Source: an archaeon
Lineage (GTDB): Archaea; Nanobdellota; Nanobdellia; Pacearchaeales; GW2011-AR1
Assembly (NCBI GenBank): GCA_038121585.1
Contig: JAYONY010000002.1
Span: 95,341-159,340, forward strand
Direction: 5' to 3'
Length of the DNA: 64,000 bases
Below, piece after piece: positions 27,553 to 45,605 of the stretch. A program made the position numbers and the translations under genes. Position 1 is the first letter of the stretch; every line of letters begins with the position of its first letter. A model generated the notes under the pieces. It was not told the DNA's origin and ran no database searches. It saw only the letters and a list, made by a program, of their open reading frames with translations.

Positions 27553-27564
27553 ACGCCCCAACCG
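27553..27564 (+). repeat. att-like core copy 1 (ACGCCCCAACCG)
   Basis: Exact 12-mer starting one nt after the TAG stop of the ATP-grasp gene. Confidence 0.7.
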
Positions 27565-27653
27565 TAAGTTGGGTAGAAACGAGAACGCTCTACGCGATAA
27601 TAACAATGTAATTAAAGTCTTGAGATATATAAATATTTTGAATAGCGAGGATA

Positions 27654-28115
27654 ATGGGAAATAAAAACACTGTTTATGGCATTGTAATTGTTTTGCTATT
27701 AGTGATAATTGCATTATTGTTTATTGGTTTTAACAATTCAAGAGTCACAGGAAACGTAGTTAGTGTAGATAGTGCACTTGAAGAAGAAAGTACTTTTGTT
27801 CCTGATAGTGTGCTTCCAGAATATCATGATACTTTTCTGGTGTACAAAGGGCCTTTATTTAATGGAATGGCCATGTTAGTGTATGAGCGAGAGGTTGAAG
27901 ATGTTGAGGAGGATAATCTAATTATAAAATTGAAAAAACGTGAGAATCGAGACTATCGAGAGCTAGCTGAGTATCTTTCTATAAATAGAATCCCAGGGGT
28001 TATAATTCATACTGAAGATATGGAGATTGGCGAGGAAATAAGTGAAGAAATCGGAGCAAGTGTTATTGTCAAATTTGGGAAAGTAGCGTCTGACGGTTCT
28101 ATTATTCGGAAGTAG
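27654..28115 (+). CDS. N-terminally anchored hypothetical protein
   Basis: ATG start, one TM, acidic soluble domain. Confidence 0.4.
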   Translation: MGNKNTVYGIVIVLLLVIIALLFIGFNNSRVTGNVVSVDSALEEESTFVPDSVLPEYHDTFLVYKGPLFNGMAMLVYEREVEDVEEDNLIIKLKKRENRDYRELAEYLSINRIPGVIIHTEDMEIGEEISEEIGASVIVKFGKVASDGSIIRK

Positions 28116-28136
28116 GCTTTTTACCCTTCAAACTTT

Positions 28137-29153
28137 TCATGGATATTTTTCGCGTAAAAATTGGAGATTGATTGGTTCTATGGGTAATATTCTTGGGCAT
28201 GTGTCTGTTCGAGTGGTAGACATTAGGCTTCCGAAATTACTATTATGCTCAACTCCAAATGCATGCAATAGCTCGTGCAATGCAACATTTCTGTCTTCAC
28301 AATCATTACCATTGGTGTCATAAACTGAAGCAACAAGTAATGTACTTGGGTCTTCATCAGGCACCATTTTTCCAATAGTGGAGGTAAGGCCATCACTTGA
28401 TGTAGGCCAATGTTCTCTTGGCAATATGATGCCAAGAATTAATTGGGCATCATTTGCATTATTAACTTCTTCAAAAGTAATAGATGGAACTTTTGATGTT
28501 AATTCAGCCATGGCTTCATCAAAATTTTCTCTTTTTTGAATTGCCAATTGCTCATGTGCGTTTCCAGGGTCAAAGTAAAAGGTTATGGGCATTTCAAATT
28601 CTAATTCAGGAAAAAGGTTGAATGAAGTTACAGTTTCTGTTTGAATTCCTTCAGGTACTTCTTGCGCTCCTAAACGAATTGTTTCAGTGTATATGCTATA
28701 TTCTGCATCTTGAGCGCTTGGATTGTAAAGGATTATAACCCCTCCATTAACAACGCATGAAAGTGTATATTCTGTGACTTCTTCAATACTACAACCTGCA
28801 TACCTATTGTAGTGTATAAGGTCAAAATATTTTTCATAATCTCTATAAGTTGGAACTATTTGCATATTTAGGGGTTGGCTACTTTCAATTCTAAAAGTTG
28901 CTTCTTCAATTAGTTCTGATTCAAATTCTATAGCAATGATGTAGTCTGATGAAAGTGTATCTTGATCAAATAATGCCTCATTTGAATTGCTTACGTTTTC
29001 AGTAGAGTTTTGTGATTCATTAGTAAGTATGATTGTTTCTTGAGAATCTAGAGTGCCGCTGATTGTCCAAATGAACAATGCTAAAACAATGGCTACTAAG
29101 GTCATATGAATTAGAAAACTATAATCTTTCTTTGGTTTTTTCTTTGATGCCAC
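28137..29153 (-). CDS. Membrane-anchored zinc metalloprotease (metzincin-like)
   Basis: HELLHAFGVEHN equals HExxHxxGxxH. N-terminal TM, GTG start. Confidence 0.7.
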   Translation of the reverse strand: MASKKKPKKDYSFLIHMTLVAIVLALFIWTISGTLDSQETIILTNESQNSTENVSNSNEALFDQDTLSSDYIIAIEFESELIEEATFRIESSQPLNMQIVPTYRDYEKYFDLIHYNRYAGCSIEEVTEYTLSCVVNGGVIILYNPSAQDAEYSIYTETIRLGAQEVPEGIQTETVTSFNLFPELEFEMPITFYFDPGNAHEQLAIQKRENFDEAMAELTSKVPSITFEEVNNANDAQLILGIILPREHWPTSSDGLTSTIGKMVPDEDPSTLLVASVYDTNGNDCEDRNVALHELLHAFGVEHNSNFGSLMSTTRTDTCPRILPIEPINLQFLREKYP

Positions 29154-29225
29154 AACACGCCCAAGCAGGCATCACTTAATAATATTTCTAAAAAATTTCT
29201 GTACGGTTTATACTCACATTATTAT

Positions 29226-29561
29226 TTATTTTTCTGTTCCAATAATGTTTTTTACTCCGCATAAACGGCATTTAATGAGGGAATGATTGTATGCTCGAAG
29301 CTCATTCTTGATATTTTCATTAGTAGTTATCATGTTTTTACAGTTTGGACATTTCCACCTTCCATCAATTTGTTTTTTGATTGGTTTCTTGTAATTATCT
29401 TTCATAGCTAACATCTGATTTTTTTTATGTAACTCATTAATCTGTTCTAATGCTACATAAACTCCAAGTACTATTAATGCTGTAATTATACGTTCTCCTA
29501 CCAAACTGTCTGTGAAAAAGTTAATTGAAAGTCCTAAAACAGCCCACCAGATTAAGTTCAT
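29226..29561 (-). CDS. Two-TM protein with C-terminal zinc ribbon
   Basis: CPNC..x..CRLC after two hydrophobic helices. Confidence 0.45.
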   Translation of the reverse strand: MNLIWWAVLGLSINFFTDSLVGERIITALIVLGVYVALEQINELHKKNQMLAMKDNYKKPIKKQIDGRWKCPNCKNMITTNENIKNELRAYNHSLIKCRLCGVKNIIGTEK

Positions 29562-29662
29562 CTAGCATAATCATTGAATGAATGTATATAAAAATTTCTG
29601 TGCGGATAACCTCAAAAACATCATGTTTTTTGTGAACGTCGCTGACATGATGTTTTTTGTGT

Positions 29663-29919
29663 AAGGTTAACGATTGTTAACCTTTCTGGCCTTCGGCCGT
29701 AGTGCTGTTATTGCAATACAGCCAGCCTTTCGTAGGCTGGTAAGGCTCTCGAGAGCCTAGTCTCGCCCCAAAGCGAGACCTGTATTGACAATTCTTTCGT
29801 GGCACTCCCAACGCGCAATAAACGAGCGTATAATGAAAATCTAACTTTTGCGAGGCGTGCTAACGGCTTCGCAAAAGCAAAGATTGCTATTATAGAACGA
29901 AGAGGCATTAGTTGGGAGT
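29663..29919. other. Hairpin-dense GC-rich segment: candidate structured ncRNA or replication origin
   Basis: Six local hairpins plus a 9-bp long-range pairing (29804..29812 with 29911..29919) that encloses a 12-bp stem (29845..29856 / 29866..29877). The only ORF here is Arg/Leu-rich junk. Confidence 0.45.
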
Positions 29920-29981
29920 AATGGGTCGTCCGTAGAAATAATACTATTATACTCTCTTTTTAGTATCATTTTATACTATAT

Positions 29982-31283
29982 TTATGGACGGATATGATTA
30001 GTAAATATTTCTGAATCGAAAGGTAGTGTTTCCTTCGCTTTCCAGAAGTAATAATACTTATCTGGATAAGTGGTGGGTTCATTTCTACAATCTATAATTC
30101 CAACATTCTGTAAGACACTACATTCTCGCATTACCGTTGATTTTCCTATTTTTATTCTGTGAGCTATTTTGGTAGTGCTCAAATCTCCGTCCGTGTCAAT
30201 TAGTAGTGCTAAAATCTTTACTCTTGTAGGAAATGCTGAGCTTTTTGCGATATGCCAGAGTATTCGTAGCGCTGTTGATTCTGGATAGTTTTCCTCAAGA
30301 CTCATTAGGCAGATGTACATTCTCTTGAGTTGTTTTGCTATTCTGGTTGGTTCTTCTGGGTAAACTTGATTTCGTAATTCTTGGGTATAGTTATCAAATT
30401 CTGCAGTTGCTCTCATTAGAGAAATAAAAATAGCGATAGCTTTGATTTCTTTAAGTGTTTTCGGAGTGATAGTTTTCCTATTGATTTCAGTTTTTGTTAT
30501 GAAATCTGTTGTAGTTTTTTGAAGTAATTTCTTTATTTTTTCTTCTGCTTCTTCGTTTTTGAAGCAGCGTTCTATGAGAGTTTCTTTGTCCGCACTCCCT
30601 TTTGTTCTGTAGATAAGTTCTCTTGTTCCTAGGTCTTGGTGGATTAGTATTTGACCATCAATAACTGGTGTACTGCCGCCTAAGAGGGTAATTTTAAGGT
30701 CTTTGTAGTTTGCTCTACTGCCTTGTCCGGATATTTTTCCTGCATGTCCATCATAAAGGTCTCTAAGTTGTGCCCAAACTTGTGCTTTGTCAACTGGTGG
30801 CAGTTTTAGTATTTGGGACATGTCAGGGATAATAACTATTTTATTGTTCAATTCAGGCGCAAGGTCAGGATACTCTTTTTTGTTCTTATGCCCATTAGCT
30901 AATGTTTTTGCTGTAAGATTGTGTAAAACAAATACCTCGTCTCCCCTAATTGCATTTAGTTGAACGCTTTTCATGTCTCCACTTGGTCCTACAAGTAAGA
31001 GCCACAAGGGAATTCCTTCTAACTTTCTACTAAGGGCAGTTGCTAACACAACATCAATCCTATCGGTATCTTCTATATGGAGATTTTCCTTGTAAATTCT
31101 GTGAAGGTTTTGCAGATTAATTGATTCATATTCTTCTTCACTATATTCTGTTGCTAATAATATTGGTAATGGGTTTTCACAACATTTGAAATCGCTAACA
31201 TCTCTTTCCCTATCTTTTATGAACATAGACTTACAATTCTTACATTCAAACTTGTTTTTAGGGGTAATGGATTCATTACTCAT
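29982..31283 (-). CDS. Putative element replication protein: Zn ribbon + deviant P-loop NTPase + C-terminal wHTH
   Basis: CKNCKS..x..CCENP, GPSGDMKS (Walker-A-like), KIVIIPDMSQ (Walker-B-like), C-terminal KIGKSTVMRECSVLQNVGIID. Confidence 0.45.
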   Translation of the reverse strand: MSNESITPKNKFECKNCKSMFIKDRERDVSDFKCCENPLPILLATEYSEEEYESINLQNLHRIYKENLHIEDTDRIDVVLATALSRKLEGIPLWLLLVGPSGDMKSVQLNAIRGDEVFVLHNLTAKTLANGHKNKKEYPDLAPELNNKIVIIPDMSQILKLPPVDKAQVWAQLRDLYDGHAGKISGQGSRANYKDLKITLLGGSTPVIDGQILIHQDLGTRELIYRTKGSADKETLIERCFKNEEAEEKIKKLLQKTTTDFITKTEINRKTITPKTLKEIKAIAIFISLMRATAEFDNYTQELRNQVYPEEPTRIAKQLKRMYICLMSLEENYPESTALRILWHIAKSSAFPTRVKILALLIDTDGDLSTTKIAHRIKIGKSTVMRECSVLQNVGIIDCRNEPTTYPDKYYYFWKAKETLPFDSEIFTNHIRP

Positions 31284-31507
31284 TTTAGCCTCACTCCATG
31301 AAATGGTACGATTTCAAGAACATCCATTTCTTGCAATGTGCTGAGTAATTCCCATGCATCTTTTTTTGTTATAGAAAATGAACGGCAAATTGATTCAAAG
31401 ACCAAAGGGAATCTAATTATCTCACGAGTGCCTTTGCATCGCTGAATGCGTTGCAATGCTATTTTGTATAGTCCTTGTGTTTTATTAGCTAGCTTTTGGT
31501 TCTTCAT
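31280..31507 (-). CDS. Small conserved element protein (wHTH-like), homolog of 52140..52469
   Basis: GLYKIALQRIQRCKGTREIIRFPLVFESICRSFSITKKDAWELLSTLQEMDVLEIVPFHGVRL aligns with GLYTILFRRLEEIRKDCHKEIIPFPVLFEKLCRNFSISKQECWDILFMLRDVGLIEIVPYRGVKF. Confidence 0.5.
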   Translation of the reverse strand: MKNQKLANKTQGLYKIALQRIQRCKGTREIIRFPLVFESICRSFSITKKDAWELLSTLQEMDVLEIVPFHGVRLK

Positions 31508-31558
31508 TTGGTTTGTTCTGAGGGGTTTTTCCCTCTTCTTTAATTTGTAAGATGATGC

Positions 31559-31699
31559 TTACCCACTCTGCTGTTTCTCTTTTTTCTTGTTCCATGAGTA
31601 AGATTTGCATTTCGGGCATGACAATGGGTTTTCGAGCTTGGAATACCAATCATGGTCGCATTTTTTGCATTCGTGGTTTTTGAGTGTGATTGCTTTCAT
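31559..31699 (-). CDS. Small zinc-ribbon protein
   Basis: Trimmed to ATG 31699. CKKC-x14-CPKC. Confidence 0.4.
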   Translation of the reverse strand: MKAITLKNHECKKCDHDWYSKLENPLSCPKCKSYSWNKKKEKQQSG

Positions 31700-31759
31700 A
31701 TTATGATGATAATCAGTAGGTTTAAGAAGACTATTGTCTTGGCTAAATTGGTCATAACT

Positions 31760-32311
31760 ATGAAAAGACTTAGCCATAACCAAAAGCAACTTAGCAAAAT
31801 ATCTCACAGAATAAAGCGAAGAGCTGAAGTTGAAAATCTTATCATGGGGGCTTTGAAGAAAGAAGATGATTTGACTATAGCTCAGCTAGTAGAAAAAACA
31901 GGTTTGTCACGTGGCAATGCGAAGCACTATTTGAAGAACCTTATGAAACGTAAGTTTGTTATTGGAAAGCGCCAAAATGACATCCATGGAAGGCCTACAT
32001 TTCTTCGATTGAACAAAAAGGAAATTGAAAAGCGTCAAAAACAGAGTTTTAGGTCATTTGAAGATTTTGAAACTCACCATTTGAAATCTATTGTTACAAT
32101 GAAAATACTTGATGAGGTATCTAACCAGCAAGACCCCCAAGTGCAAACAAAAAAGATTTTACAACTATTTAAAAAATTTAGATTAGAAAGTTTTGGAGAA
32201 AAACTTACATTCCTAATGTATTCTGACTATATTAAGTTAAATTACGAATTTGAGCTCACTGAGAAAGGTAAAAAATATTTGAAGAAAACTAAACAGAAAT
32301 CTTCTGCTTAA
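31760..32311 (+). CDS. Winged-helix DNA-binding protein
   Basis: Trimmed to ATG 31760. LTIAQLVEKTGLSRGNAKHYLKNLMKRKFV. Confidence 0.5.
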   Translation: MKRLSHNQKQLSKISHRIKRRAEVENLIMGALKKEDDLTIAQLVEKTGLSRGNAKHYLKNLMKRKFVIGKRQNDIHGRPTFLRLNKKEIEKRQKQSFRSFEDFETHHLKSIVTMKILDEVSNQQDPQVQTKKILQLFKKFRLESFGEKLTFLMYSDYIKLNYEFELTEKGKKYLKKTKQKSSA

Positions 32312-33464
32312 TCAATTTCAAAATCTCTTTGTCTTTCAATAAAGCATTCATAATATCGTCTGCTTGTACACGTTCTAGCTCGTTTTTGATTTTCTTATTT
32401 GCTTCTTGCTCATTAAGTATCATACCGCACGTCTTACAGAATTTGTTTGTGACTTCGTTAACTGTCTTGCAACGAACGCATTTTTGAGGTAGGAGTTCTT
32501 GCTTCTTTTCTTCCTCTTGCACTTCTACACCGCTTAATTTTAGTATTGCATTATCAGTGTCTCGTCCTGATAAGTGAACGTATACGCCTGCCATTTTACT
32601 GGACTGCGTCCATCCTAGATAGTCTTTCATTTGTGCTTCTGTCAAGTGCTTAGCTAAGTACGTTGCGCGACTGTGACGGAATAGGTGCGGGTAGACTCGT
32701 TTCTTAATCCCAGCTTTTAAAGCACAGCTCTTGAGTATTGCAGCTATGCGAGTATACGTTAATGGTTCTCCATTGGGTTTTGTCCAAATATAACTATCAG
32801 GTATGCCGTTATTCTTATGACGATTAACCCATTCTTGCACGTACGGTGCTGATTGCACGATTCGAATTCTTCGAGCTCCTGTCTTGCCCGAAACGGTTAC
32901 TCGTGCTCCATGTTCGTCAAACGTGATGTCTTTCATACGCATTGAACCTATTTCTCCTATGCGGCAGCCAGACTCGTAGAGGATGGAAAGTAATGCACGG
33001 TCTCGTAGTGTATTGGCGGAGCCAATCATTAGTTTTACCTCTTCCTCACTCATGAGTTCATCAGGTAGTTTCTTGTGGTTGTTCTTTACGCCTGTCCTTA
33101 GCCATCGTATCTTCTCAGGGTACACGCCTTTTTCGTCAATGCCTTCGATGTAACGGTATAATTTCTTAATCATGACTTTGAATGTGTGTTTTGTGTGAGG
33201 GCTCCATTCTTTCTTTTCTATAGTGGCAACTGCAGCCTGTAAGTCCTCTTTTGTTGCGTCAGCGAGGTCGCAATTCATTATTTGAGCGAGTCTGAAAGCA
33301 TCATACAGGTATCGTTCTATTTTACAGATGCCTAGACCATCAGTGAAACAAAAGTTATGGAATGCTTCTAGTAAATCTTTATTCTTTTGAGAAATGTCTG
33401 ACTGTCGAACGTTGTTGAGTGTTCGGTCAAGTCGCTTTTTGTAGTTGTGAATGTCGAGTGCCAT
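32289..33464 (-). CDS. Tyrosine recombinase/integrase with C-terminal zinc ribbon
   Basis: ESGCRIGEI (Arg I), HLFRHSRATYLA (HxxR), GW..MAGVYVHL (Tyr), CVRC..x..CKTC. Confidence 0.85.
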   Translation of the reverse strand: MALDIHNYKKRLDRTLNNVRQSDISQKNKDLLEAFHNFCFTDGLGICKIERYLYDAFRLAQIMNCDLADATKEDLQAAVATIEKKEWSPHTKHTFKVMIKKLYRYIEGIDEKGVYPEKIRWLRTGVKNNHKKLPDELMSEEEVKLMIGSANTLRDRALLSILYESGCRIGEIGSMRMKDITFDEHGARVTVSGKTGARRIRIVQSAPYVQEWVNRHKNNGIPDSYIWTKPNGEPLTYTRIAAILKSCALKAGIKKRVYPHLFRHSRATYLAKHLTEAQMKDYLGWTQSSKMAGVYVHLSGRDTDNAILKLSGVEVQEEEKKQELLPQKCVRCKTVNEVTNKFCKTCGMILNEQEANKKIKNELERVQADDIMNALLKDKEILKLIKQKISV

Positions 33465-33521
33465 GATTTCGTACTTTGTTGTTTGCTATTAAACAACGTA
33501 GTACGTTCTCTTTTCTACTAC

Positions 33522-33533
33522 ACGCCCCAACCG
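33522..33533 (+). repeat. att-like core copy 2 (ACGCCCCAACCG)
   Basis: Exact 12-mer about 60 nt upstream of the integrase start codon (33464). Confidence 0.7.
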
Positions 33534-33604
33534 TGGAGCCTGTGAATTTTCAACGTCCTTTCCGACGTGAGGTATTGCTTATTATTCAATAGGGGTTGTT
33601 GTAT

Positions 33605-35539: not shown

Positions 35540-35745
35540 TATTCTACTACCTTGTAGCCTACTGCAGCAACTGCCTTTTTGAGATCTTCAAGTTTTACAT
35601 CATCTTCTACTTCAATGATTGCTTTGTGTGTCATGACACTGACGCTGACGCTGGTTACGCCAGGCACTTTTTTCAAACTCTTTTCAACGTTTCCCCCGCA
35701 CGCAGCGCAGTGCATGCCTGTAATAGCTAATTTTATTTTCTTCAT
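35539..35745 (-). CDS. copZ: Copper chaperone, HMA domain
   Basis: [15 protein letters not shown]. Its stop overlaps the copA start. Confidence 0.85.
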   Translation of the reverse strand: MKKIKLAITGMHCAACGGNVEKSLKKVPGVTSVSVSVMTHKAIIEVEDDVKLEDLKKAVAAVGYKVVE

Positions 35746-37584: not shown

Positions 37585-37591
37585 TAAGACA

Positions 37592-37598: not shown

Positions 37599-37618
37599 TT
37601 GAGAACGTCAGTGTAGCA

Positions 37619-38110
37619 ATGGAAAACAAACAAGTAGGGTACTTGCTCTTAGGTATTACTGTTCTTCTAATATTTATCATCTACTTGTTTAATGCTGCAT
37701 TGCATGAAATAGTCAATGCTTCATGTTCAGAAGCAGGGCATGGTGACTCCTGTCCAATGTATAATACGATTAATCGACAAACGTATCTTTCCATAGGTAT
37801 TACTTCGCTAGTTGGGTTACTCGGATTATTTATGATTTTCACTAAGCCAGCTAAAGAAGTTATTGTTAAGACAAAAACTGTTACGAAACCTAAGAAGGTC
37901 TTTGATATTTCTGAACTTACAAAAGAAGAGTTACGGGTGTTTGAACTTGTTAAGGAGCAGAAAGCGGTTTTCCAAGCAGATCTTATTGAAAAAACAGGCT
38001 TTGGGAAGGCTAAAATGACTCGTATTATTGATCGTCTAGAGGGGAAGCGTATTGTAGAGCGAAAACGTCGCGGAATGACTAATATTGTAGTGCTGTTAGA
38101 AGAAGATTAA
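37619..38110 (+). CDS. Membrane-tethered winged-helix regulator with Cys/His/Met loop (candidate copper sensor)
   Basis: TM1, loop CSEAGHGDSCPM, TM2, then FQADLIEKTGFGKAKMTRIIDRLEGKRIVERKRRGMTNIVV (wHTH). Paralog at 62344..62838. Confidence 0.6.
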   Translation: MENKQVGYLLLGITVLLIFIIYLFNAALHEIVNASCSEAGHGDSCPMYNTINRQTYLSIGITSLVGLLGLFMIFTKPAKEVIVKTKTVTKPKKVFDISELTKEELRVFELVKEQKAVFQADLIEKTGFGKAKMTRIIDRLEGKRIVERKRRGMTNIVVLLEED

Positions 38111-38166
38111 AGCAATCTAATGCGATAGTAACTAATCATTATTAATTATGAAAATAGGAAAATAAA

Positions 38167-38178
38167 ACGCCCCAACCG
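38167..38178 (+). repeat. att-like core copy 3 (ACGCCCCAACCG)
   Basis: Exact 12-mer. Confidence 0.7.
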
Positions 38179-38320
38179 AAGGGTGCATGGTTCTGTGACA
38201 ATTTAGTAATGTTAATTTCTAAAGGTTCTTAGAGGTTAAATAATTTGCTCTTTTTCAATCACATCTGTTTGAGATGACGTGCTTCTATCAGCTATAAAAA
38301 ACGAGCATTTAGTAAGTTTA

Positions 38321-38426
38321 TATTTTATCGCGTGCTTCAACTTTCTCTTTATTTTTTTACTTTAGTGGCGCGCCACCGACAATAATTTAGTCGAACAAAG
38401 TTCGACAGCACGCACGCGATAAAATA
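38321..38426. other. Composite inverted-repeat element
   Basis: 15-bp arms TATTTTATCGCGTGC / GCACGCGATAAAATA enclose palindrome GTGGCGCGCCAC (38365..38376) and hairpin GTCGAACaaaGTTCGAC (38390..38406). Confidence 0.5.
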
Positions 38427-38463
38427 GGTTAATCTTTATATAATTCTTTTAGCAAGTTAAAAA

Positions 38464-38757
38464 ATGTCTCAAAATAATGATAATAGAGAATTTATTGGTG
38501 AGTTCATTTCAGATAGTTGTCAATTATTAATTGTAGATCCTTCATGCTTGTATAATTTTAAAGAAAATGGCGAAGAAAGAAAAATGGACCTTACATATTC
38601 AGGGTGTTGTAATGCAACATTGTCAAAAGAGGGATATGGTGCTTTGAACAAGGATCAGGGGTTTGCTACTAGTGTTGGAGATGGTGAAACGAACTACAAA
38701 ATCTATGTGAAAAAGGAAAATGATAAAATTAAGAGAATAACAATAGAATTTCCTTAA
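38464..38757 (+). CDS. Hypothetical protein
   Basis: 97 aa, ATG start, no recognisable motif. Confidence 0.4.
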   Translation: MSQNNDNREFIGEFISDSCQLLIVDPSCLYNFKENGEERKMDLTYSGCCNATLSKEGYGALNKDQGFATSVGDGETNYKIYVKKENDKIKRITIEFP

Positions 38758-38768
38758 TTAAGTAACCA

Positions 38769-39809
38769 TTATATCTTATAGTTGATCCCGACTACGTCGC
38801 GCAGCTCTCTTAATTTTTCAGAAGCAATTTCTCGAACCTCATCTCTCCCTTTTCTTAGGACATCGTATGCTCTATCATCTGATATGGATTCTCTTTTTTT
38901 TCTGAAAGTTTCAAGAGTTGGGTTGAGTGCTTTTACTAAATCGCTTTTACAGTAGCCGCAAAGAAGATCTCCTTCAATGCATCTTTTTTCAATTGAGCTT
39001 GCTTCATCATTGAATAGTTTCTGATATTCATAAACAGAGCATGATTCTGGATTTCCCACATAGCCTCTGCTCTCAATCTTTTCTGGATCTGTAGGCATTT
39101 TCCGTATTTTTTTAGCATATGATTTGTCTCCTTCGCCTAAATCTATCGTGTTTCCAAAACTCTTACCCATCTTCTTTCCATCCGTTCCAATTAACACTCC
39201 GTCCAGTATTTCGAGCCCTTGAGGTACTCTAAACAGATCGTAACCTGCAACATCATTTACTTTTCTTGCAATCTCTCTGCTGATTTCCAAGTGAGGCATT
39301 TGATCTCTTCCAACGGGTACAATTGTTCCGTCATTTGCTAAAATATCTCCTGCTTGCAACACGGGATATAGGAATAATGAGGCGCTAGGTGATTTCTGCT
39401 TGTCCTTCCAATCTTTCAATGTGGGATTTCGTTCTAGGCGTGATGCAGTAACAAAGTTTGTTAGCAGATAGCCTATTTCATAATGCTCGGGTACTGTTGA
39501 CTGAGCATACAATGTTGATTTTTCAGGGTCAATCCCTGCGGACAATAGTTCTTTCGTAAAATCTAGTGTTCTACGCTCAGCGTTCTTAAAATCCTCTTTT
39601 GTGTTGCTTGTGGTCATTGTGTGAACGTCTGCTATCATAAATGATGGCTTTTCTAATGTGTCTTCGCTTGATGAGGTCTCTTGGAGTTCTAAATAAGGTC
39701 TTAGGACTGCTACTAAGTGGCCTAGGTGTAATTTTCCTGTTGATCTCATACCAGTCATTACTCTGTGCTTGCCTTCTGTTTTATCAAGTAATTCTGTGAT
39801 GTCTCTCAT
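38769..39809 (-). CDS. trpS: Tryptophanyl-tRNA synthetase, bacterial-type, with C-terminal Cys4 motif
   Basis: GKLHLGH (HIGH), VPVGRDQMPHLEISREIARKVN, KKMGKS (KMSKS), C257-x19-C-x6-C-x2-C. Confidence 0.75.
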   Translation of the reverse strand: MRDITELLDKTEGKHRVMTGMRSTGKLHLGHLVAVLRPYLELQETSSSEDTLEKPSFMIADVHTMTTSNTKEDFKNAERRTLDFTKELLSAGIDPEKSTLYAQSTVPEHYEIGYLLTNFVTASRLERNPTLKDWKDKQKSPSASLFLYPVLQAGDILANDGTIVPVGRDQMPHLEISREIARKVNDVAGYDLFRVPQGLEILDGVLIGTDGKKMGKSFGNTIDLGEGDKSYAKKIRKMPTDPEKIESRGYVGNPESCSVYEYQKLFNDEASSIEKRCIEGDLLCGYCKSDLVKALNPTLETFRKKRESISDDRAYDVLRKGRDEVREIASEKLRELRDVVGINYKI

Positions 39810-39900
39810 AAATTTGAGGAATTTATACCATATATAAAATTTACCATTATGGAGTGAGGATAAAAGTTAAGTTTTTATACTAGTTTTAGTCATAGATTTG

Positions 39901-41499
39901 ATGGATAAGACTATTAAAGAGTTATTTGGTGAGGAGGAGAAAGTTGACTTTGAGGATCTTGCTAATAAGATTATACAGGTAGGGGAAAAAATCCCAGAGA
40001 TCCCAAAGAACAGCCCTTACCTTGGGAGAAATGAAAGGAATTTCATAATTTCAGAGGAGCCTTGTGATGCTGATGATTTATTCGAGAACATCGCAGGATT
40101 CTTTTCAGATTCAATAAATTGGAAATCAGCTAGGGCGATGTTAAATGTAACGCCTCCTGCTGTAATCTCAGGGGTAGCTGCCTCATCAATAGTATCTCTT
40201 CTTAACCCAAATGGAGTATGGGATATAGCTTCAGGTAGGCTATTGGAATTAGAACAGAATCTAAGCAAATATTTCAGTGATCTAATTGGATGGGAAGAAT
40301 CAAACGGGTTCTTTACTTTTGGTGGAACATCTACAAATCTTTACGGTATTAAACTTGGATTGAATAAGGCGAACGAAAATGCGGCAAGTCAGGGAACTAT
40401 TGGTGCGGACAATGTTGTCTTCTCAAATAATGAGGGCCATTCATGTCATGTCTCGGTTTGTAACTGGTTAGGGATTGGAACTGAAAATTGTATTCGTATG
40501 AAAAATAATGCCTCCGGTGAGGTAGATTTTGACTCACTTATTAATGGAATTGAGAAAGCCATTCTCGATGGGAAGAAGGTTGCATGTATCGTATTAAATG
40601 GGGGGAGTAATTTTGATGGCGTTATTGATCCAATTGGGAGGGTATCTGAAAAATTAGTTAAATTGAAGAATAAGTATTCATTGGATTACTTGCCTCACAT
40701 TCATGTTGATTCTGTTTTGGGATGGGTATATCTTTTATTTAAGGAGTATAACTTCGTAGAAAATCCTCTTAACATTTCTGAGCAGATATTAGCAACCATT
40801 AAGAAAAGTGTAGATGAGATTTCAGAACTTGAATATGCTGATTCAATGGGTATCGATTTTCATAAAACTGGTTATTGTTCATATCTATCCAGCATGTTTA
40901 TCTCGAAGAATAAAAAGGACTGGGCTCATTTCTCAGGCGGAGAGGATATTTTTTCACATCAATCTTTTGATAGGGGTAAGTATCAACCAGGTAAGTTTAC
41001 TTTAGAAACTTCCCGGCCTCTAAATGGTGCAGTTTCTGCTTATATAACCTTGAATGCGCTCGGGTTGAATGGTGTCCGCAAGGTCATTGTTGGATTGTAT
41101 GAGGCCTCATTAAACTTAAAGAAAAAATTATCTCAAGATGAATGTTTTGTTATTGGCAATATGAATCCTCAGAATTGGGCAACAATATTCATGGTTTCTA
41201 GAGATAAAAGGAAAAAAAGCCTCTCGGATTTTATGGGTCTAGATGAAGTTGAATTAAAAAAACACAATGATCTTCAGAAAGAATTCTATAATTATGTAAT
41301 GGATAAATCAAATGATGATGATCGTTGGTTGTTAGGATTTGCAAGTTCGTACAAAAAAACACAAAAAGGGTTTTCAATAGCCGGATTGAAGAGTTATCCT
41401 ATGTCACCATACTTTACAAAAGAAAAAGCAGATGAATTATCTGTTTGGCTTCATAAGAAGCGCGAAGATTTTCTAGAGCTAAAGAATCAAGCTGTTTAA
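39901..41499 (+). CDS. Group II PLP-dependent decarboxylase
   Basis: SNNEGHSCHVS, HIHVDSVLGW, DSMGIDFHKTGY (PLP lysine). Confidence 0.7.
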   Translation: MDKTIKELFGEEEKVDFEDLANKIIQVGEKIPEIPKNSPYLGRNERNFIISEEPCDADDLFENIAGFFSDSINWKSARAMLNVTPPAVISGVAASSIVSLLNPNGVWDIASGRLLELEQNLSKYFSDLIGWEESNGFFTFGGTSTNLYGIKLGLNKANENAASQGTIGADNVVFSNNEGHSCHVSVCNWLGIGTENCIRMKNNASGEVDFDSLINGIEKAILDGKKVACIVLNGGSNFDGVIDPIGRVSEKLVKLKNKYSLDYLPHIHVDSVLGWVYLLFKEYNFVENPLNISEQILATIKKSVDEISELEYADSMGIDFHKTGYCSYLSSMFISKNKKDWAHFSGGEDIFSHQSFDRGKYQPGKFTLETSRPLNGAVSAYITLNALGLNGVRKVIVGLYEASLNLKKKLSQDECFVIGNMNPQNWATIFMVSRDKRKKSLSDFMGLDEVELKKHNDLQKEFYNYVMDKSNDDDRWLLGFASSYKKTQKGFSIAGLKSYPMSPYFTKEKADELSVWLHKKREDFLELKNQAV

Positions 41500-42303
41500 G
41501 TCAGAAACGATTTTAGATTCATCTAGTTCGCCCTCAAGAACAGTTATGGGCGAAATAAAATTGTCGAGTTCTGTAAATGATTCTTTCTTTGAGAATTTCT
41601 TGTATCCGGGTAGTTCTTTGAGTAATTCTTCAATTTTTTGTATTCTGTCTTCATTGCTGTTTGCAAAGTTCACAAACTTCTTCCAGTAAGCTTGGTGATT
41701 ATCTCTCATAAACTTAAGATTTGAGGTATAGCTGTAGTTCTCGACTCCCCAAAACTTAGAAAATGTTAGGGCAATTAGTCCATGAATTTGAAGGCAAACA
41801 AGGTCAGAAATATCTTTATCAACAGGAAGATAGTACTTTGCTTTGTTTACTCGCCAAAAATAATGGAACCAAACAGAGTCAAGCTCTGATTCAAATGTCT
41901 TGAAAGTAGAGTCTCTCAATGCTATTTCCTTTATTTTTTGATAAAGGGCATCAGACTTTGAAAAAAGAGTTTTACCTTCTTTCAATATCACATTAAATAA
42001 ACGAGGTCTTGTATTGTTTATGATTTCATTTTCCTCGAAGATAAGGATATCAAGGAGTCTATTGTTTTTTATGTAGTGAAGACACTGAATGTGCTTTTCT
42101 TTATAATCATCTTTTACGATAATTGCAAGATCAATATCTGAATTCTCGAGCTGTGAGCTTTTTGAATATGATCCAACCAAAACTGCTCCTCTTATATCTT
42201 CTGATTCTCTAAACTTTTTTATCAGATTTGGATAAGAGCTTTGCAGAAGTTTATCGATCTGTTCAACTAGTTCTTCATCAAAGTAGGCTTTATTTTTTTC
42301 CAT
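41479..42303 (-). CDS. Pol-beta-superfamily nucleotidyltransferase with helical C-terminal domain
   Basis: LVGSYSKSSQLENSDIDLAII (GS..x..DxD). Overlaps the upstream TrpRS gene by 14 nt. Confidence 0.6.
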   Translation of the reverse strand: MEKNKAYFDEELVEQIDKLLQSSYPNLIKKFRESEDIRGAVLVGSYSKSSQLENSDIDLAIIVKDDYKEKHIQCLHYIKNNRLLDILIFEENEIINNTRPRLFNVILKEGKTLFSKSDALYQKIKEIALRDSTFKTFESELDSVWFHYFWRVNKAKYYLPVDKDISDLVCLQIHGLIALTFSKFWGVENYSYTSNLKFMRDNHQAYWKKFVNFANSNEDRIQKIEELLKELPGYKKFSKKESFTELDNFISPITVLEGELDESKIVSDLNSLIL

Positions 42304-43381
42304 AGGCTATCTCGTTAGCTATTTCTCTGAATGATTCAACCTTCACCTGATGTTTCGAAAGGGTTTCTGTTAGGAATTCAATACAGATTTTCTTTAGTTC
42401 TCCTGTTGACATTTCTCCAGATTTGTATCTTGTGTATGTTTCCTGTACAAGTTTTGTGTCTGGATGATGCAGCTGAAGAATTTCATATGCCTTATCGACT
42501 TCGGGAATTCCTCCCAACTTCTTATGCTCTTCAATAGTTTCTCTTCCGCCTGAAAAAGCGCGGTTAATTTTTCGTTTAATATCTGAGGGGTTATCATTTA
42601 AGAAAATAGCAGAATCTTTTATTGAGGCACTCATCTTCATATCCTTTTGCAGCCCTGTTTGATGGACAAAGAATGCAAATGATGGCTGAACAAAACCGTA
42701 TGGTAATCTTCGAGATATATCTCTGCAAATTCGAGCATGAGGGTCTTGCTCTACTCCAATACATGTAATTGAAGGCATAGGTCCAAAATTTTCCTTAAGT
42801 TGAAGATGCAGAATATCTGCATATTGAAGGATATTTGCAGATAATTTTCCCGGATTGACATGTCCATATGTTGCTCTGAAAGCATTTTCTGTGATTTTCT
42901 TTGAAGCTTCAAAAGCTAGTTGGAAATAGGAGGGTTTCTGCTGGCTTTGGACATAGATCTCTTCCTTTTTAACCCCAAATGCAAGTAAGTGAGCGACTAT
43001 ATCTGCTGCATACTTTTTAGCTTCCTTCATTGAAGGAACCTTATCATCCGGTCTTGAAACAAACGCATCAATATCTGATATTACACATCTACTAATTGCA
43101 CCTAACTCTCGAAACATGAGGAATATGTCGATATCTAACTTGTGGCCTAAATGCAATGGTCCTGAAGAAGCGATCCCTGTGAGTTGTATGAATGGCTGTT
43201 TATTCTTTATTCGCTGAGCAATTTTGTCTAGATCTCTATGTGCTAGGAGTATCTTTCGTTTAAGCAAGTAATGATCTGTATTCAGATAATTTTCTGGAAT
43301 TTCTTTTAAACCAAATTCTTTCAAGAGTTTTTCATCAATTTTTATCTCGTCTGAGCCCCAAGGGTCTATTTGTTTTTGCAT
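42290..43381 (-). CDS. Tryptophanyl-tRNA synthetase, archaeal/eukaryotic-type
   Basis: IDPWGSDEIKIDEKLLKEFG, SSGPLHLGH (HIGH), GVEQDPH, MKMSAS (KMSAS), AFSGGRETIEEHKKLGGIPEVD. Confidence 0.7.
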   Translation of the reverse strand: MQKQIDPWGSDEIKIDEKLLKEFGLKEIPENYLNTDHYLLKRKILLAHRDLDKIAQRIKNKQPFIQLTGIASSGPLHLGHKLDIDIFLMFRELGAISRCVISDIDAFVSRPDDKVPSMKEAKKYAADIVAHLLAFGVKKEEIYVQSQQKPSYFQLAFEASKKITENAFRATYGHVNPGKLSANILQYADILHLQLKENFGPMPSITCIGVEQDPHARICRDISRRLPYGFVQPSFAFFVHQTGLQKDMKMSASIKDSAIFLNDNPSDIKRKINRAFSGGRETIEEHKKLGGIPEVDKAYEILQLHHPDTKLVQETYTRYKSGEMSTGELKKICIEFLTETLSKHQVKVESFREIANEIAYGKK

Positions 43382-43701
43382 GGTTATGTCACAAATTTAG
43401 GATTTATAAGTTATCTTATCTAGCAGGATTATTGATTTTTATAATCGGTGCATTTGGGACATGCCCTGAAATACACCTCTTTGTAACTATTCACTCAAAA
43501 TAAGTTTATCAAATGTTAGGGAGTTGCACTATATCTAAATAAAGAGCTACACTGCGTTTCGCTCTTTAAATACGCTTCACCCAGTTGAGAAACCTCCAAT
43601 TTCTCCCTAATTTAGTGAGGGAGAAATCGTTCGGCGTGGATGAAGGACGGGGGAATTAGAAATAAGAAGCAGGGTTAGAAAGAAAGGGGATTACAGAGGG
43701 A

Positions 43702-43887
43702 TTAATTATTAAACAATCTTTTTGCCAAATGGTCAATTTTTCGCTCTATGCGGAAAATATCAGTTCTTTCTCGCAGTATCTGTCTTATGAGTTGTGAGAG
43801 GGAAAGATCTTTTTCTTCAGCCTCATCACGTAATTTATTATGAAGGTGCGTGTCAAGATTAAAGTGTATCTGGGAGTTTTTCTTCAT
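43702..43887 (-). CDS. Ribbon-helix-helix (CopG-like) protein
   Basis: IHFNLDTHLHNKLRDEAEEKDLSLSQLIRQIL. Confidence 0.55.
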   Translation of the reverse strand: MKKNSQIHFNLDTHLHNKLRDEAEEKDLSLSQLIRQILRERTDIFRIERKIDHLAKRLFNN

Positions 43888-44313
43888 TAGTAATCCTCCT
43901 CGTAAAAGGTGTTAGATCTTGATTCTTGTAAAAGTATAAGTGAGTCGATTCTTTGCAGGATTTTATCTCCTAGGTCTTTGATTAGTAGTTCTGTGCTTTG
44001 AGTTCTTTTATTTGAAAGCATAAATGTAGTTCCTCAAGTTTATTTTTAAGAAAGTACCAACACTTTCTTTGATTTAACAGCGCTAGGTCTGAGGGGTATA
44101 TAAGGAAGTGCGGACACTTTTTTCAGAATCTTCTAGGGAGAGTCTCAAGCAAGACTTTGTAAATCAATTTTTTAGCGAATATAGCTTGGTGTTTGCAGTG
44201 TTTCTTTTTCTTGTTTTTTTGAGTCTTTTTCTAAGATTTCATCACACATTGTAAGAAACAATTTAACTTGTTCATCTAATTCTTCAGAAGTAAGCATTGA
44301 CATATGCCTCCTT

Positions 44314-45531
44314 TCATGAATCATTGTTAATGAGGTATAATTCTTTTTTGGGTTTTTGATTGGTCATCATCTCAGCTAAAACTTCAGTTCTTTCTAGAAT
44401 TTGTTTCATTTGTGTTTCTAATGATTGAACTCGTTCTTGTAGTAATTTCTTTTCTTGTTCTGTTTTTTTGAGTCTTCTTTCATGTTCTGTAATGGATATG
44501 TCTAGCATAAGGTCTTCTTCTGTGATTGTATCATTAAGCCCTAAAAAATCAGTGTACTCGAATACTTTGTCATTTTTCTTCCATCCGAAGCGATATTGTA
44601 AGGCTGATTGTTGCTTGTATCTCGGCAGCCAATAACATGCTGAAGAATGTCTAAAGTCGTAAAGCGTAAGCTCTGAGTATCTTTTGCCTCCAGAGCTTAT
44701 ATTATCCCCCAAAACCTTCTTAGCTAGGCGTTTTAGGTACTGATTGGTGACTGAGGGACTTATTTTGAAGAGATAGTCCTCTTGACTGAGATGATTCTCT
44801 TTAATATGCTCTTTGAGTATTTCAGGACAGAGCATTAATTTTATCTTTCTGCCAATAATTTTGCTGATTTCATCCCTAATGTGTAATTCACTATAATCTT
44901 TATTTAAGTCAGAGACTAAAACGTTTGAAAGCTCTGTTGGAGCCCTGATTCCTGTATCAAACAAAAAAAGCATTAGCGCTTTGTACTTGAATTTTGCTCT
45001 ATTACATAGTTTTTTGACATCATGTTCTGTTAAGTAAGTCCATTTATGTTTCTCTACACTAGAATCTAAGTAGATAGTAATATCTTCTAGTGCTTCTCCT
45101 TGTTTCTTTCTAACCAACATTAACCAATGCCAAAATGTTTTGAAGTTTTTCACAAAGTAACCTGTTGATTGATAGGGCTTGCCATTTTGTTTAGTGATTT
45201 CACCTTTTCTCATTCCACTAATAATTTGATGAATTTGTTTCTCAGATATTTTTGATATGTCTTGTAATTTGAATAAACTCTCTGTAGTTCTAGTAAAAAA
45301 CATTAACTTATCTCGTAAGGTGTTTAATCTAATGTAACTTCTAGGGCCCTTCTTACTTCTGACTGAAACGTTAAGCCCATGCTCCATATCAAAAATAAAG
45401 TCTTTAATTAGCTCAGAATTAGCCTTACTAACGCCTTCTATTCCGTTCTCAGAAGCTTTTTTCCACTTCTCAAACTTCCGCTTGTGATTGTGTGGATCTT
45501 TCTTTTCTGCCATGCTGTACGAGAGAACCAC
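44314..45531 (-). CDS. Tyrosine recombinase/integrase with C-terminal coiled coil
   Basis: DTGIRAPTEL (Arg I), LYDFRHSSACYWL (box II), FGWKKNDKVFEYTDF (Tyr). Confidence 0.75.
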   Translation of the reverse strand: MVLSYSMAEKKDPHNHKRKFEKWKKASENGIEGVSKANSELIKDFIFDMEHGLNVSVRSKKGPRSYIRLNTLRDKLMFFTRTTESLFKLQDISKISEKQIHQIISGMRKGEITKQNGKPYQSTGYFVKNFKTFWHWLMLVRKKQGEALEDITIYLDSSVEKHKWTYLTEHDVKKLCNRAKFKYKALMLFLFDTGIRAPTELSNVLVSDLNKDYSELHIRDEISKIIGRKIKLMLCPEILKEHIKENHLSQEDYLFKISPSVTNQYLKRLAKKVLGDNISSGGKRYSELTLYDFRHSSACYWLPRYKQQSALQYRFGWKKNDKVFEYTDFLGLNDTITEEDLMLDISITEHERRLKKTEQEKKLLQERVQSLETQMKQILERTEVLAEMMTNQKPKKELYLINNDS

Positions 45532-45593
45532 GAGTTGTATATAACCAACTTGTATAGTTCTTGTACATCACTATAATATCACAAAAAGAGTAT

Positions 45594-45605
45594 ACGCCCC
45601 AACCG
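45594..45605 (+). repeat. att-like core copy 4 (ACGCCCCAACCG)
   Basis: Exact 12-mer about 60 nt upstream of the integrase start (45531). Confidence 0.7.

What the first reader, a model, noticed from the sequence alone, without database searches (positions are those of the whole stretch)
27553..45605. Four exact copies of ACGCCCCAACCG split 18 kb into a tandem array of integrase-bounded islands
Seen: the GC-rich 12-mer occurs at 27553, 33522, 38167 and 45594, always on the plus strand, in an AT-rich window. I did not notice it anywhere else. Copy 1 starts one nt after the stop codon of the ATP-grasp gene. Copies 2 and 4 each lie about 60 nt upstream of the start codon of a tyrosine recombinase gene (32289..33464, 44314..45531). 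Gene content changes from chromosomal to accessory exactly at copy 1. Inference: the 12-mer is an att core, and several unrelated elements (E1, E3, E4) plus an integrase-less cargo segment (E2) have piled up at one chromosomal site. Serial accretion at a site with no visible tRNA would be unusual for an archaeon of this apparent type.
Basis: partly seen in the sequence, partly recalled or inferred. Interest (0 to 1): 0.75.

Follow-up and report, generated by a model that had tools for sequence, protein, structure and literature searches.

The report
Mobile-element pile-up at a tRNA-Asp gene
The repeated 12-mer is the last 11 bases (plus one) of a tRNA-Asp gene lying just beyond the window, and it marks the joints of four mobile elements inserted one after another into that gene in a DPANN archaeon, which is a familiar kind of genomic island array rather than an unusual tRNA-less one.

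Summary
ACGCCCCAACCG occurs exactly four times, all on the + strand, against 0.06 expected by chance.

The att-core reading is right, but the "no tRNA" part is wrong. A metagenomic contig 100% identical to window 45594-64000 runs 2.09 kb past the window. It carries a fifth copy at window-equivalent 66061-66072, fused to 18 more bases of a tRNA T-arm. The 30 bases match tRNA-Asp(GTC) genes on other contigs.

The 12-mer is the reverse complement of the last 3 T-stem bases, the acceptor 3' strand, G73 and one further base. A third integrase, Int4 (46% identical to Int1), sits 60 nt from copy 5.

- E1 and E4 each carry a significant ~22-nt inverted repeat that pairs their own two ends across the core.
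- E2 has no integrase. It is collinear with E4's copper module and keeps only an E4-like arm, like a decayed cis-mobilizable remnant.
- E3 has an unrelated integrase.
- E4 carries a VirB4-like ATPase and a T4SS pilin.

Homologous integrases in other archaeal MAGs sit beside tRNA genes with 11-13-nt repeats, including a second tandem array at tRNA-Asp. RecQ, integrase and VirB4 relatives place the host in DPANN. This is a new member of a known kind, of modest interest.

The parts
26589..27551 (+). TupA-like ATP-grasp gene; last gene of the left flank, whose stop codon lies 1 nt before core 1
   Evidence: Pfam PF14305, E 4.5e-47. Only bacterial relatives at <=45% identity among 185k species genomes.
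27553..27564 (+). Core copy 1: displaced 3'-terminal fragment of tRNA-Asp (reverse complement) and outermost att of the array
   Evidence: 13 nt of uninterrupted identity to tRNA-Asp. The junction is spanned intact by Logan contig L065.
27565..33521 (.). E1: 5.96-kb cryptic integrated element, GC 0.364. It carries a metalloprotease-like protein, Zn-ribbon proteins, a 433-aa wHTH protein and Int1
   Evidence: Pfam. No viral hallmark genes in PHROGs. GC.
27573..27594 (+). E1 distal inverted-repeat arm GTAGAAACGAGAACGCTCTACG, starting 8 nt after core 1
   Evidence: Pairs 19/22 with 33497-33518; 0/100 shuffles reach the score.
33497..33518 (+). E1 integrase-side inverted-repeat arm CGTAGTACGTTCTCTTTTCTAC, ending 3 nt before core 2
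32289..33464 (-). Int1: tyrosine recombinase with a C-terminal four-Cys zinc ribbon
   Evidence: PF00589, E 3e-23. In the 25-sequence family alignment R168, H260, R263, H264, Y295 and C329/C332/C343/C346 are invariant. 46% identical to Int4.
33522..33533 (+). Core copy 2 (E1|E2 joint)
   Evidence: 14 nt identical to tRNA-Asp. Spanned by Logan contig L064.
33534..38166 (.). E2: 4.63-kb integrase-less copper module, GC 0.403. It carries a P-type ATPase, HMA, cupredoxin, membrane proteins and MarR. CIME-like remnant of an E4-type element
   Evidence: Pfam. Six of its seven ORFs are collinear with E4 genes at 52-75% aa identity.
33542..33567 (+). E2 distal arm GTGAATTTTCAACGTCCTTTCCGACG. It is homologous to E4's distal arm and sits at the same 8-nt offset; E2 has no partner arm at its other end
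38167..38178 (+). Core copy 3 (E2|E3 joint)
   Evidence: Spanned by Logan contig L069.
38179..45593 (.). E3: 7.4-kb element, GC 0.354. It carries two class-I Trp/Tyr-type aaRS paralogs, a PLP-decarboxylase-like protein, a nucleotidyltransferase, an Arc-like repressor and Int3
   Evidence: Pfam and PHROGs.
44314..45531 (-). Int3: divergent tyrosine recombinase
   Evidence: PF00589, E 1.5e-6. phrog_216 integrase, E 2.4e-12. About 24% identical to Int1 and not significantly similar to Int4.
45594..45605 (+). Core copy 4 (E3|E4 joint)
   Evidence: Two Logan contigs from two samples terminate exactly at base 45594.
45606..64000 (.). E4: ICE-like element, 20.46 kb in full, running to window-equivalent 66060. 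It carries Fic, a VirB4/TraC-like ATPase, a T4SS pilin, CDF, a Cu P-type ATPase, ArsR, cupredoxins, two multicopper oxidases and MarR. MerT, ArsR and Int4 lie beyond the window
   Evidence: Pfam. Logan contig SRR26337539_96759 is 100% identical over 45594-64000 and extends to 66090.
45614..45637 (+). E4 distal inverted-repeat arm GAGAAATTTCAACGCCCTTTCTGG, starting 8 nt after core 4. It pairs with CCATGACGGGCGTTGAAATTTTTC, which ends 3 nt before core 5 (window-equivalent 66034-66057)
   Evidence: 0/100 shuffles reach the score.
47535..50477 (-). VirB4/TraC-like conjugation ATPase of E4, with an N-terminal PrgI/VirB3-like region
   Evidence: Pfam PF19044, PF01935, PF12846. 978 relatives at E <= 1e-20; the best 120 are 54-68% identical, and all but one of those named by a source come from Nano-/Pace-/Woesearchaeota MAGs.
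51675..52016 (-). VirB2/TrbC-type T4SS pilin of E4
   Evidence: PF18895, E 9.8e-15; PF04956, E 4.7e-10.

Best explanation
The 12-mer is the crossover core of an att site made from the 3' end of a tRNA-Asp(GTC) gene. That gene lies on the minus strand about 2.06 kb to the right of the window. Read on the tRNA strand the core is CGG-TTGGGGC-G-T: the last three T-stem bases, the acceptor 3' strand, discriminator G73 and one downstream base.

Circular elements with a tyrosine recombinase carry the same 12-14 bases in their attP. Recombination with the tRNA gene inserts the element, rebuilds an intact tRNA from the element's copy, and pushes the old 3' fragment to the far side. Repeating this with four elements gave the following array, 38.5 kb in all: ATP-grasp | c1 | E1-Int1 | c2 | E2 | c3 | E3-Int3 | c4 | E4-Int4 | c5 = tRNA-Asp.

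- E1 and E4 use related zinc-ribbon integrases. In each reconstructed attP, ~22-nt inverted-repeat arms flank the core, 3 nt from it on the integrase side and 8 nt on the distal side. These arms are probably integrase-binding sites.
- E3 uses an unrelated integrase with the same core.
- E2 is a decayed E4-type element that kept both cores and one arm but lost its integrase. It could move only in cis with a neighbour, as CIMEs do.
- E4 is ICE-like, with a VirB4-like ATPase, a pilin and metal-resistance cargo.

Shown: the cores, the tRNA identity of the core, three integrases in a fixed position, arm pairing, E2/E4 collinearity, and the same architecture in relatives. Inferred: the order of insertion, current activity, and the binding role of the arms.
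For: - Exact copies: four in the window and a fifth on a same-strain contig (100% identity over 18.4 kb).
- tRNA identity: the fifth copy is contiguous with 18 further bases that, together with the core, match 30/30 the 3' end of a tRNA-Asp(GTC) gene on metagenomic contig L063. Copies 1-4 match for only 12-14 nt.
- Integrases: all three lie 57-80 nt from a core, on the same strand and on the tRNA-proximal side. The catalytic R/H-x-x-R-H/Y residues and four Cys are invariant in the Int1/Int4 family.
- Arm pairing: E1's two ends and E4's two ends each form a significant inverted repeat with identical geometry (0/100 shuffles). E2 and E3 do not.
- E2: collinear with E4's copper module.
- GC content differs by segment: 0.364, 0.403, 0.354 and 0.393.
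- Relatives: Int1 homologs at 58-67% identity sit 43-68 nt downstream of tRNA-Ser genes (L066, L068). L066 has an 11-nt tRNA-end repeat 10.3 kb away and a perfect 13-nt GAGAACGC-containing inverted repeat in its reconstructed attP (1/100 shuffles).
- Second array: L067 shows tRNA-Asp(GTC) - integrase - 7.6 kb - 13-nt tRNA-Asp 3' repeat - Int1 homolog.
- Population signal: Logan contigs from two samples stop exactly at base 45594. The contigs I retrieved across c1, c2 and c3 (one each, from two samples) run through those cores unbroken. This fits strain-level variation in what lies left of E4.
- Literature: arrays formed by re-use of an att site by tyrosine-recombinase elements are described for archaea and bacteria (PMC6563490), and CIME/accretion is described in PMC5704250.
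Against: - The intact tRNA-Asp of this genome was not seen in full. Only 30 bases of its 3' end are on the same-strain contig, so copy 5 could in principle be a longer fragment with more elements beyond it.
- No empty site was found. The genome-collection scan with the ATP-grasp protein returned only distant bacterial homologs.
- No circular attP junction was seen. The way the E4 contig ends, including 18 tRNA bases at c5, argues against an assembled attP junction in that sample.
- E3 has no detectable arm repeats.
- E4 has no detectable relaxase or VirD4, so self-transfer is unproven.
- How E2 lost its integrase side yet kept an exact core is unexplained.
Confidence: 0.88

Rival explanations
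1. En-bloc origin. The four-segment block was assembled in another genome or on a plasmid and entered this tRNA-Asp gene as one composite. Alternatively it was built by recombination between cores rather than by four separate insertions here.
For: Transfer of composite CIME-ICE tandems is documented in bacteria (PMC5704250). The single contigs retrieved across each of c1, c2 and c3 are unbroken, so E1-E3 look fixed together.
Against: The segments differ in GC content. They carry three different integrases from two unrelated families, and the arms pair within each segment. Contigs break at c4 in two samples. This rival changes where the accretion happened, not what the structure is.
Confidence: 0.1
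2. Copy 5 is not the live tRNA gene but another, longer tRNA-Asp fragment. The array would then continue further right with more elements before the real tRNA.
For: Only 30 bases of tRNA sequence are available on the same-strain contig. Some integrases duplicate longer tRNA segments.
Against: Copies 1-4 all stop at 12-14 nt, and Int4's own distal copy (c4) stops at 12 nt. An element ending at c5 should therefore not carry 30 nt of tRNA. The contig begins exactly k-1 = 30 bases before E4-specific sequence, as expected where a shared tRNA sequence creates a graph branch.
Confidence: 0.07
3. The 12-mer is a dispersed regulatory, terminator or integrase-promoter motif, or an integron/cassette-type site served by one integrase, and not a tRNA-derived att core.
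For: It lies in intergenic DNA upstream of integrase genes, and small hairpins can be drawn around some copies.
Against: It is identical to a tRNA-Asp 3' end, and the flanks are not conserved. Copies 1 and 3 are not upstream of an integrase. Relatives use the 3' end of whatever tRNA they sit beside, with different sequences. Three integrases are present rather than one. No Rfam family matches.
Confidence: 0.02

Closest known systems
Tandem arrays of tyrosine-recombinase integrative elements at the 3' end of a tRNA gene (genomic-island accretion; archaeal iMGE arrays as reviewed in PMC6563490)
   Same: A short direct repeat equal to the tRNA 3' end at every joint. The integrase gene sits next to the tRNA-proximal att of each element. 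The tRNA is regenerated by the element, and several unrelated elements share one target.
   Different: The host appears to be a DPANN (Nano-/Pace-/Woesearchaeota-type) archaeon rather than Thaumarchaeota, Sulfolobales, Thermococcales or bacteria. The core is very short (12 nt). Four elements occupy one site, 38.5 kb in all.
CIME (cis-mobilizable element) plus ICE accretion, as in ICESt1/ICESt3 of Streptococcus thermophilus (PMC5704250)
   Same: E2 keeps att sites on both sides but has no integrase or transfer genes. It is collinear with part of an ICE-like neighbour (E4) and lies in tandem with integrase-bearing elements.
   Different: E2 and E4 are only 52-75% identical in protein, so E2 is not a recent deletion derivative of this E4. 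Mobilization in cis is untested. The domain is archaeal.
Thaumarchaeal and Sulfolobus integrative-conjugative elements (VirB4/TrbE plus VirD4/TraG signature; PMC6563490)
   Same: E4 combines a tRNA-targeting integrase, a VirB4-family ATPase, a pilin and adaptive cargo (metal resistance).
   Different: Pfam detected no VirD4/TraG coupling ATPase, TFIIB, ParB or relaxase in E4. The closest VirB4 relatives are in DPANN MAGs.
SSV-type (partitioning) archaeal integrases
   Same: An archaeal tyrosine recombinase that targets a tRNA gene.
   Different: In SSV-type elements attP lies inside the int gene, so int is split on integration. Here all three int genes are intact and the core lies 57-80 nt upstream of them.

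Membership tests
tRNA-targeting tyrosine-recombinase integrative element | Encodes a tyrosine recombinase with the catalytic residues | tested here: met
   PF00589 hits for Int1 and Int3. Int4 is 46% identical to Int1. R168, H260, R263, H264 and Y295 are invariant in the 25-member alignment. Int3 is weaker (E 1.5e-6; phrog_216 E 2.4e-12).
tRNA-targeting tyrosine-recombinase integrative element | Element bounded by direct repeats identical to the 3' end of a tRNA gene, one copy being part of that gene | tested here: met
   There are five exact cores. Core 5 continues 30/30 into the tRNA-Asp(GTC) 3' sequence. Caveat: the full tRNA of this genome was not seen.
tRNA-targeting tyrosine-recombinase integrative element | Empty site (tRNA followed directly by the far flank) in related genomes | tested here: inconclusive
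   The genome scan with the ATP-grasp protein found only bacterial homologs at <=45% identity. Metagenomic tRNA-Asp loci L061-L063 have unrelated flanks.
tRNA-targeting tyrosine-recombinase integrative element | Excision: circular attP junction or restored attB detectable | tested here: inconclusive
   Raw reads cannot be searched. Contigs from two samples end exactly at core 4, which indicates alternative left neighbours of E4. The c5 end of the contig argues against an assembled attP junction.
Integrative-conjugative element (E4) | VirB4-family ATPase and other mating-pair-formation genes | tested here: met
   980-aa VirB4/TraC-like ATPase and a VirB2/TrbC pilin.
Integrative-conjugative element (E4) | Relaxase and/or coupling protein (VirD4/TraG) for DNA processing | tested here: not met
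   No such Pfam family in any E4 ORF scanned. Several small ORFs remain unannotated. E4 is therefore called ICE-like, not an ICE.
CIME (E2) | Flanked by att sites, lacking integrase and transfer genes, and related to an ICE | tested here: met
   E2 lies between cores 2 and 3. None of its seven ORFs is an integrase or T4SS gene. Six of the seven are collinear with E4, and it has an E4-like arm at 33542-33567.
CIME (E2) | Mobilized in cis by a neighbouring element's integrase | not testable with these tools
   This needs excision or transfer assays, or read-level junction data.
SSV-type partitioning integrase element | attP inside the int ORF, so int is split by integration | tested here: not met
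   All three int ORFs are intact, with the cores 57-80 nt upstream of them.
Integron / cassette array | One integrase with an attI site followed by promoterless cassettes, each ending in an attC | tested here: not met
   Three integrases are spread through the array. The segments are 4.6-20 kb multi-gene units with their own promoters, and the repeat is a tRNA end.

The most novel reading that the evidence does not exclude
E4-type elements would be genuine self-transmissible conjugative elements of DPANN archaea. Their features are a zinc-ribbon tRNA integrase, a VirB3-4 fusion ATPase, a VirB2 pilin and metal-resistance cargo. The widespread 'DUF87' VirB4 homologs in Nano-/Pace-/Woesearchaeota MAGs would then mark an undescribed conjugation system. 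It could move adaptive genes, and decayed CIME-like passengers such as E2, among ultra-small symbiotic archaea, or between them and their hosts.
Probability: 0.25. Interest if true: 0.6.

Novelty: new member of a known kind. Interest (0 to 1): 0.3.

Why it matters
The finding explains an apparently odd repeat as the standard signature of tRNA-gene integration, and so removes the claim of an unusual tRNA-less hotspot.

What remains of value is descriptive. The array is a cleanly delimited 38.5 kb of mobile DNA on a 409-kb contig of a DPANN-type archaeon, a group whose mobile elements are little documented. It consists of four elements:
- a cryptic element (E1);
- a CIME-like copper cassette (E2);
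- an element carrying aaRS paralogs (E3);
- an ICE-like metal-resistance element (E4).

The array also supplies base-precise att sites and candidate integrase-binding arms for a large zinc-ribbon integrase family (2187 relatives at E <= 1e-20). That could help delimit such elements in MAGs.

Tried and rejected
- Thaumarchaeal host. I first assumed this from the cupredoxin, multicopper-oxidase and ICE content. I dropped it after the named relatives of RecQ and VirB4 pointed almost entirely to Nano-/Pace-/Woesearchaeota, as did most named relatives of the integrase.
- Empty-site search.
- Exact-protein look-ups. ATP-grasp (two start choices), RecQ and the 363-aa aaRS paralog were not on record outside the masked source genome.
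- IMG/VR scans. The tRNA 3' pattern, Int3 and Int4 found nothing. The integrase-family alignment found six distant loci (<=40% identity) that were uninformative.
- Provirus test for E1. PHROGs and PDB sequence searches found no viral hallmark or replication protein.
- Arm repeats. None were found for E3, E2 or L067's first element.
- Older copies. A search at 2 mismatches for degenerate cores left of copy 1 gave only a chance hit.
- Rfam on the whole window gave no match.

Full report
**Observation**

The 12-mer ACGCCCCAACCG is present exactly at 27553, 33522, 38167 and 45594. It occurs only on the + strand, with no 1-mismatch variants, against 0.06 matches expected from dinucleotide shuffles. 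At 2 mismatches one chance-level hit appears inside a glycosyltransferase ORF.

Alignment of the four copies with 100-nt flanks shows that identity ends abruptly at the 12-mer. Copy 1 begins one base after the TAG of a TupA-like ATP-grasp gene. Copy 2 lies 57 nt upstream of a tyrosine-recombinase gene. Copy 4 lies 62 nt upstream of another recombinase gene if it starts at its GTG, or 80 nt if it starts at its first ATG. ARAGORN and Rfam find no tRNA or other RNA family in the window.

**Gene content**

The left flank holds a glycosyltransferase and polysaccharide cluster, a RecQ helicase and the ATP-grasp gene, with no mobility genes. The segments between copies are as follows.

| Segment | Coordinates | Content |
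|---|---|---|
| E1 | 27565-33521 | Metalloprotease-like protein, small Zn-ribbon proteins, a 433-aa wHTH protein, Int1. No viral hallmark genes in PHROGs. |
| E2 | 33534-38166 | Cu P-type ATPase, HMA, cupredoxin, membrane proteins, MarR. No integrase. |
| E3 | 38179-45593 | Two class-I Trp/Tyr-type aaRS paralogs, a PLP-decarboxylase-like protein, a nucleotidyltransferase, an Arc-like repressor, Int3. |
| E4 | 45606 onwards | Fic, a 980-aa VirB4/TraC-like ATPase, a VirB2/TrbC pilin, then CDF, a Cu-ATPase, ArsR, cupredoxins, two multicopper oxidases, MarR. |

**The fifth copy and the tRNA**

An exact-protein look-up of the last window gene returned a 20,497-bp Logan contig, SRR26337539_96759 (loci L001 and L059). 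It is 100% identical to window 45594-64000 and continues 2,090 bp further. Beyond the window it encodes MerT, an ArsR-type regulator and a 401-aa integrase, Int4.

The contig's terminal 30 bases read AATCCCGTGTTCGATTCACGGTTGGGGCGT on the minus strand. This is a T-arm (CCGTG-TTCGATT-CACGG), then an acceptor 3' strand TTGGGGC, then G, then T. The last 12 of these bases are the reverse complement of the 12-mer. That places a fifth copy at window-equivalent 66061-66072, 60 nt from the Int4 start codon.

One scan of metagenome contigs with the 21-base tRNA-side pattern found three contigs. In each, ARAGORN calls a tRNA-Asp(GTC) ending in this sequence. Contig L063 matches all 30 bases. Copies 1-4 match the tRNA for 13, 14, 12 and 12 bases only, while copy 5 matches for all 30 available.

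The core is therefore the 3' end of tRNA-Asp: three T-stem bases, the acceptor 3' strand, discriminator G73 and one further base. The site with no visible tRNA is an effect of the window boundary.

**Evidence that the segments are separate elements**

- Int1 and Int4 are 46% identical over their full length and share a C-terminal four-Cys zinc ribbon. Int3 is about 24% identical to Int1 and not significantly similar to Int4. Two integrase families therefore use one core.
- I rebuilt each element's attP from its right end, the core and its left end. E1 and E4 each show a ~22-nt imperfect inverted repeat with the same geometry: the integrase-side arm ends 3 nt before the core and the distal arm starts 8 nt after it. 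None of 100 shuffles reached the observed score. These arms pair the two ends of the same segment across different core copies, as expected for discrete units. E3 has none.
- E2 has only a distal arm, at the same 8-nt offset as E4's and visibly similar to it.
- Six of E2's seven ORFs are collinear with E4's copper module at 52-75% aa identity and 68-72% nt identity.
- GC content differs by segment: 0.364, 0.403, 0.354 and 0.393.

E2 thus fits the definition of a CIME. [quoted passage not shown]

**Relatives**

Int1 has 2187 relatives at E <= 1e-20. Those carrying organism names are from Woese-, Pace-, Nano-archaeota and Promethearchaeota MAGs. The catalytic R, H-x-x-R-H and Y residues and the four Cys are invariant in a 25-member alignment. 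I inspected three homolog loci.

- **L066** (58% identity): tRNA-Ser(TGA), then the integrase 68 nt downstream. An 11-nt repeat of the tRNA end lies 10.3 kb away. The reconstructed attP holds a perfect 13-nt inverted repeat, GCGTTCTCATAAC / GTTATGAGAACGC (1/100 shuffles).
- **L068** (67% identity): tRNA-Ser(GGA), then the integrase 43 nt downstream.
- **L067** (GCA_020724205.1): tRNA-Asp(GTC), a 401-aa integrase, 7.6 kb, a 13-nt repeat of that tRNA's own 3' end (CCCGGTCAGGGCG), then an Int1 homolog at 61% identity. This is a second tandem array at tRNA-Asp. Its core sequence follows that host's tRNA.

In all three loci inspected, then, the family sits beside a tRNA 3' end with a very short (11-13 nt) core, and in L066 with GAGAACG-type arms.

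**Host**

Named relatives of RecQ (56-67% identity) and of E4's VirB4-like ATPase (54-68%) come almost entirely from Nano-/Pace-/Woesearchaeota MAGs. Most named relatives of Int1 do too. I therefore assign the window to a DPANN archaeon, and I withdrew my initial Thaumarchaeota assumption. The source contig is 409,336 bp.

**Population signal**

The Logan contigs retrieved across cores 1, 2 and 3, one each from two samples, run through those cores with 100% identity (L065, L064, L069). In contrast, contigs from two samples (L059 and L060) stop exactly at base 45594, the first base of core 4. The large contig begins exactly 30 (k-1) bases before E4-specific sequence at core 5.

In a k=31 assembly graph this pattern is what one expects under two conditions. 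E4's left end would have more than one left neighbour in the population, and the tRNA 3' end would be shared by genomes with different downstream DNA. The pattern does not fit an assembled circular attP junction, which would also have cut the contig at core 5. This is an inference from where the contigs end, not from reads.

**Mechanism**

Shown:
- a tRNA-Asp-derived core at every joint;
- an integrase at the tRNA-proximal end of three of the four segments;
- element-specific arm pairs;
- the same architecture in relatives.

Inferred:
- Serial site-specific integration of circular elements into tRNA-Asp, each regenerating the tRNA and displacing the previous 3' fragment outward.
- The arms act as integrase-binding sites.
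- E2 moves only in cis with a neighbour.
- E4 may transfer through its T4SS-like genes. It has no recognisable relaxase or VirD4, so I call it ICE-like only.

Arrays formed by re-use of one att site by tyrosine-recombinase elements are already described for archaea and bacteria (PMC6563490).

**Verdict**

This is a real and well-delimited feature. The att interpretation is correct and the "no tRNA" novelty claim is wrong. It is a new member of a known kind, in a lineage where such elements are little described in the literature I could search.

Not established: the full tRNA in this genome, any empty site, any excision product, and the order of insertion.

Noticed in passing
window ~37572, ~57933, ~60851 and ~62285 (aligned regions 37535-37620, 57895-57980, 60810-60895, 62247-62345): A perfect palindrome, TGAAACTAGTTTCA, lies just downstream of a TATTTAA box in four promoter regions of the copper modules of E2 and E4. 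It is probably the operator of the MarR-family regulators 37619-38110 and 62344-62838.
   Followed up: partly
window 38769-39809 and 42290-43381 (E3): A mobile element carries two divergent class-I Trp/Tyr-type aminoacyl-tRNA-synthetase paralogs, 23% identical to each other. They sit with a PLP-decarboxylase-like gene (39898-41499) and a Pol-beta-type nucleotidyltransferase (41479-42303). This is unusual cargo of unknown purpose.
   Followed up: no
window 47535-50477: E4's VirB4/TraC-like ATPase has 978 relatives at E <= 1e-20, and the best 120 are 54-68% identical. Of those with NCBI names, all but one are from Nano-/Pace-/Woesearchaeota MAGs, annotated only as 'DUF87' or 'ATP-binding protein'. 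This suggests a widespread, undescribed T4SS-like module in DPANN archaea. Pfam found no relaxase or VirD4 in E4.
   Followed up: partly
window 26589-27551 and 9136-21069: The ATP-grasp gene at the array's left edge has only bacterial relatives (Bacteroidota, Planctomycetota and others) at <=45% identity among 185k species genomes. It adjoins a glycosyltransferase-rich surface-polysaccharide cluster, so the 'chromosomal' flank may itself be laterally acquired.
   Followed up: partly
L066 9933-9960, L067 9939-9965; window 33497-33518; window-equivalent 66034-66057: A GAGAACG / CAACGCC-type motif recurs about 11 nt beyond the tRNA end, between the core and the integrase start, in this integrase family across different hosts and different tRNA targets. 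It is a candidate family-wide integrase-binding or int-promoter element.
   Followed up: partly
L001 1360-2191 (window-equivalent ~63900-64731): E4 continues beyond the window with MerT and an ArsR-type regulator. This adds a mercury-related module to its copper and cation-efflux cargo.
   Followed up: no
window 46295-47197: A Fic/DOC-family protein is encoded beside the T4SS-like genes at E4's distal end. It could be a toxin or an effector.
   Followed up: no
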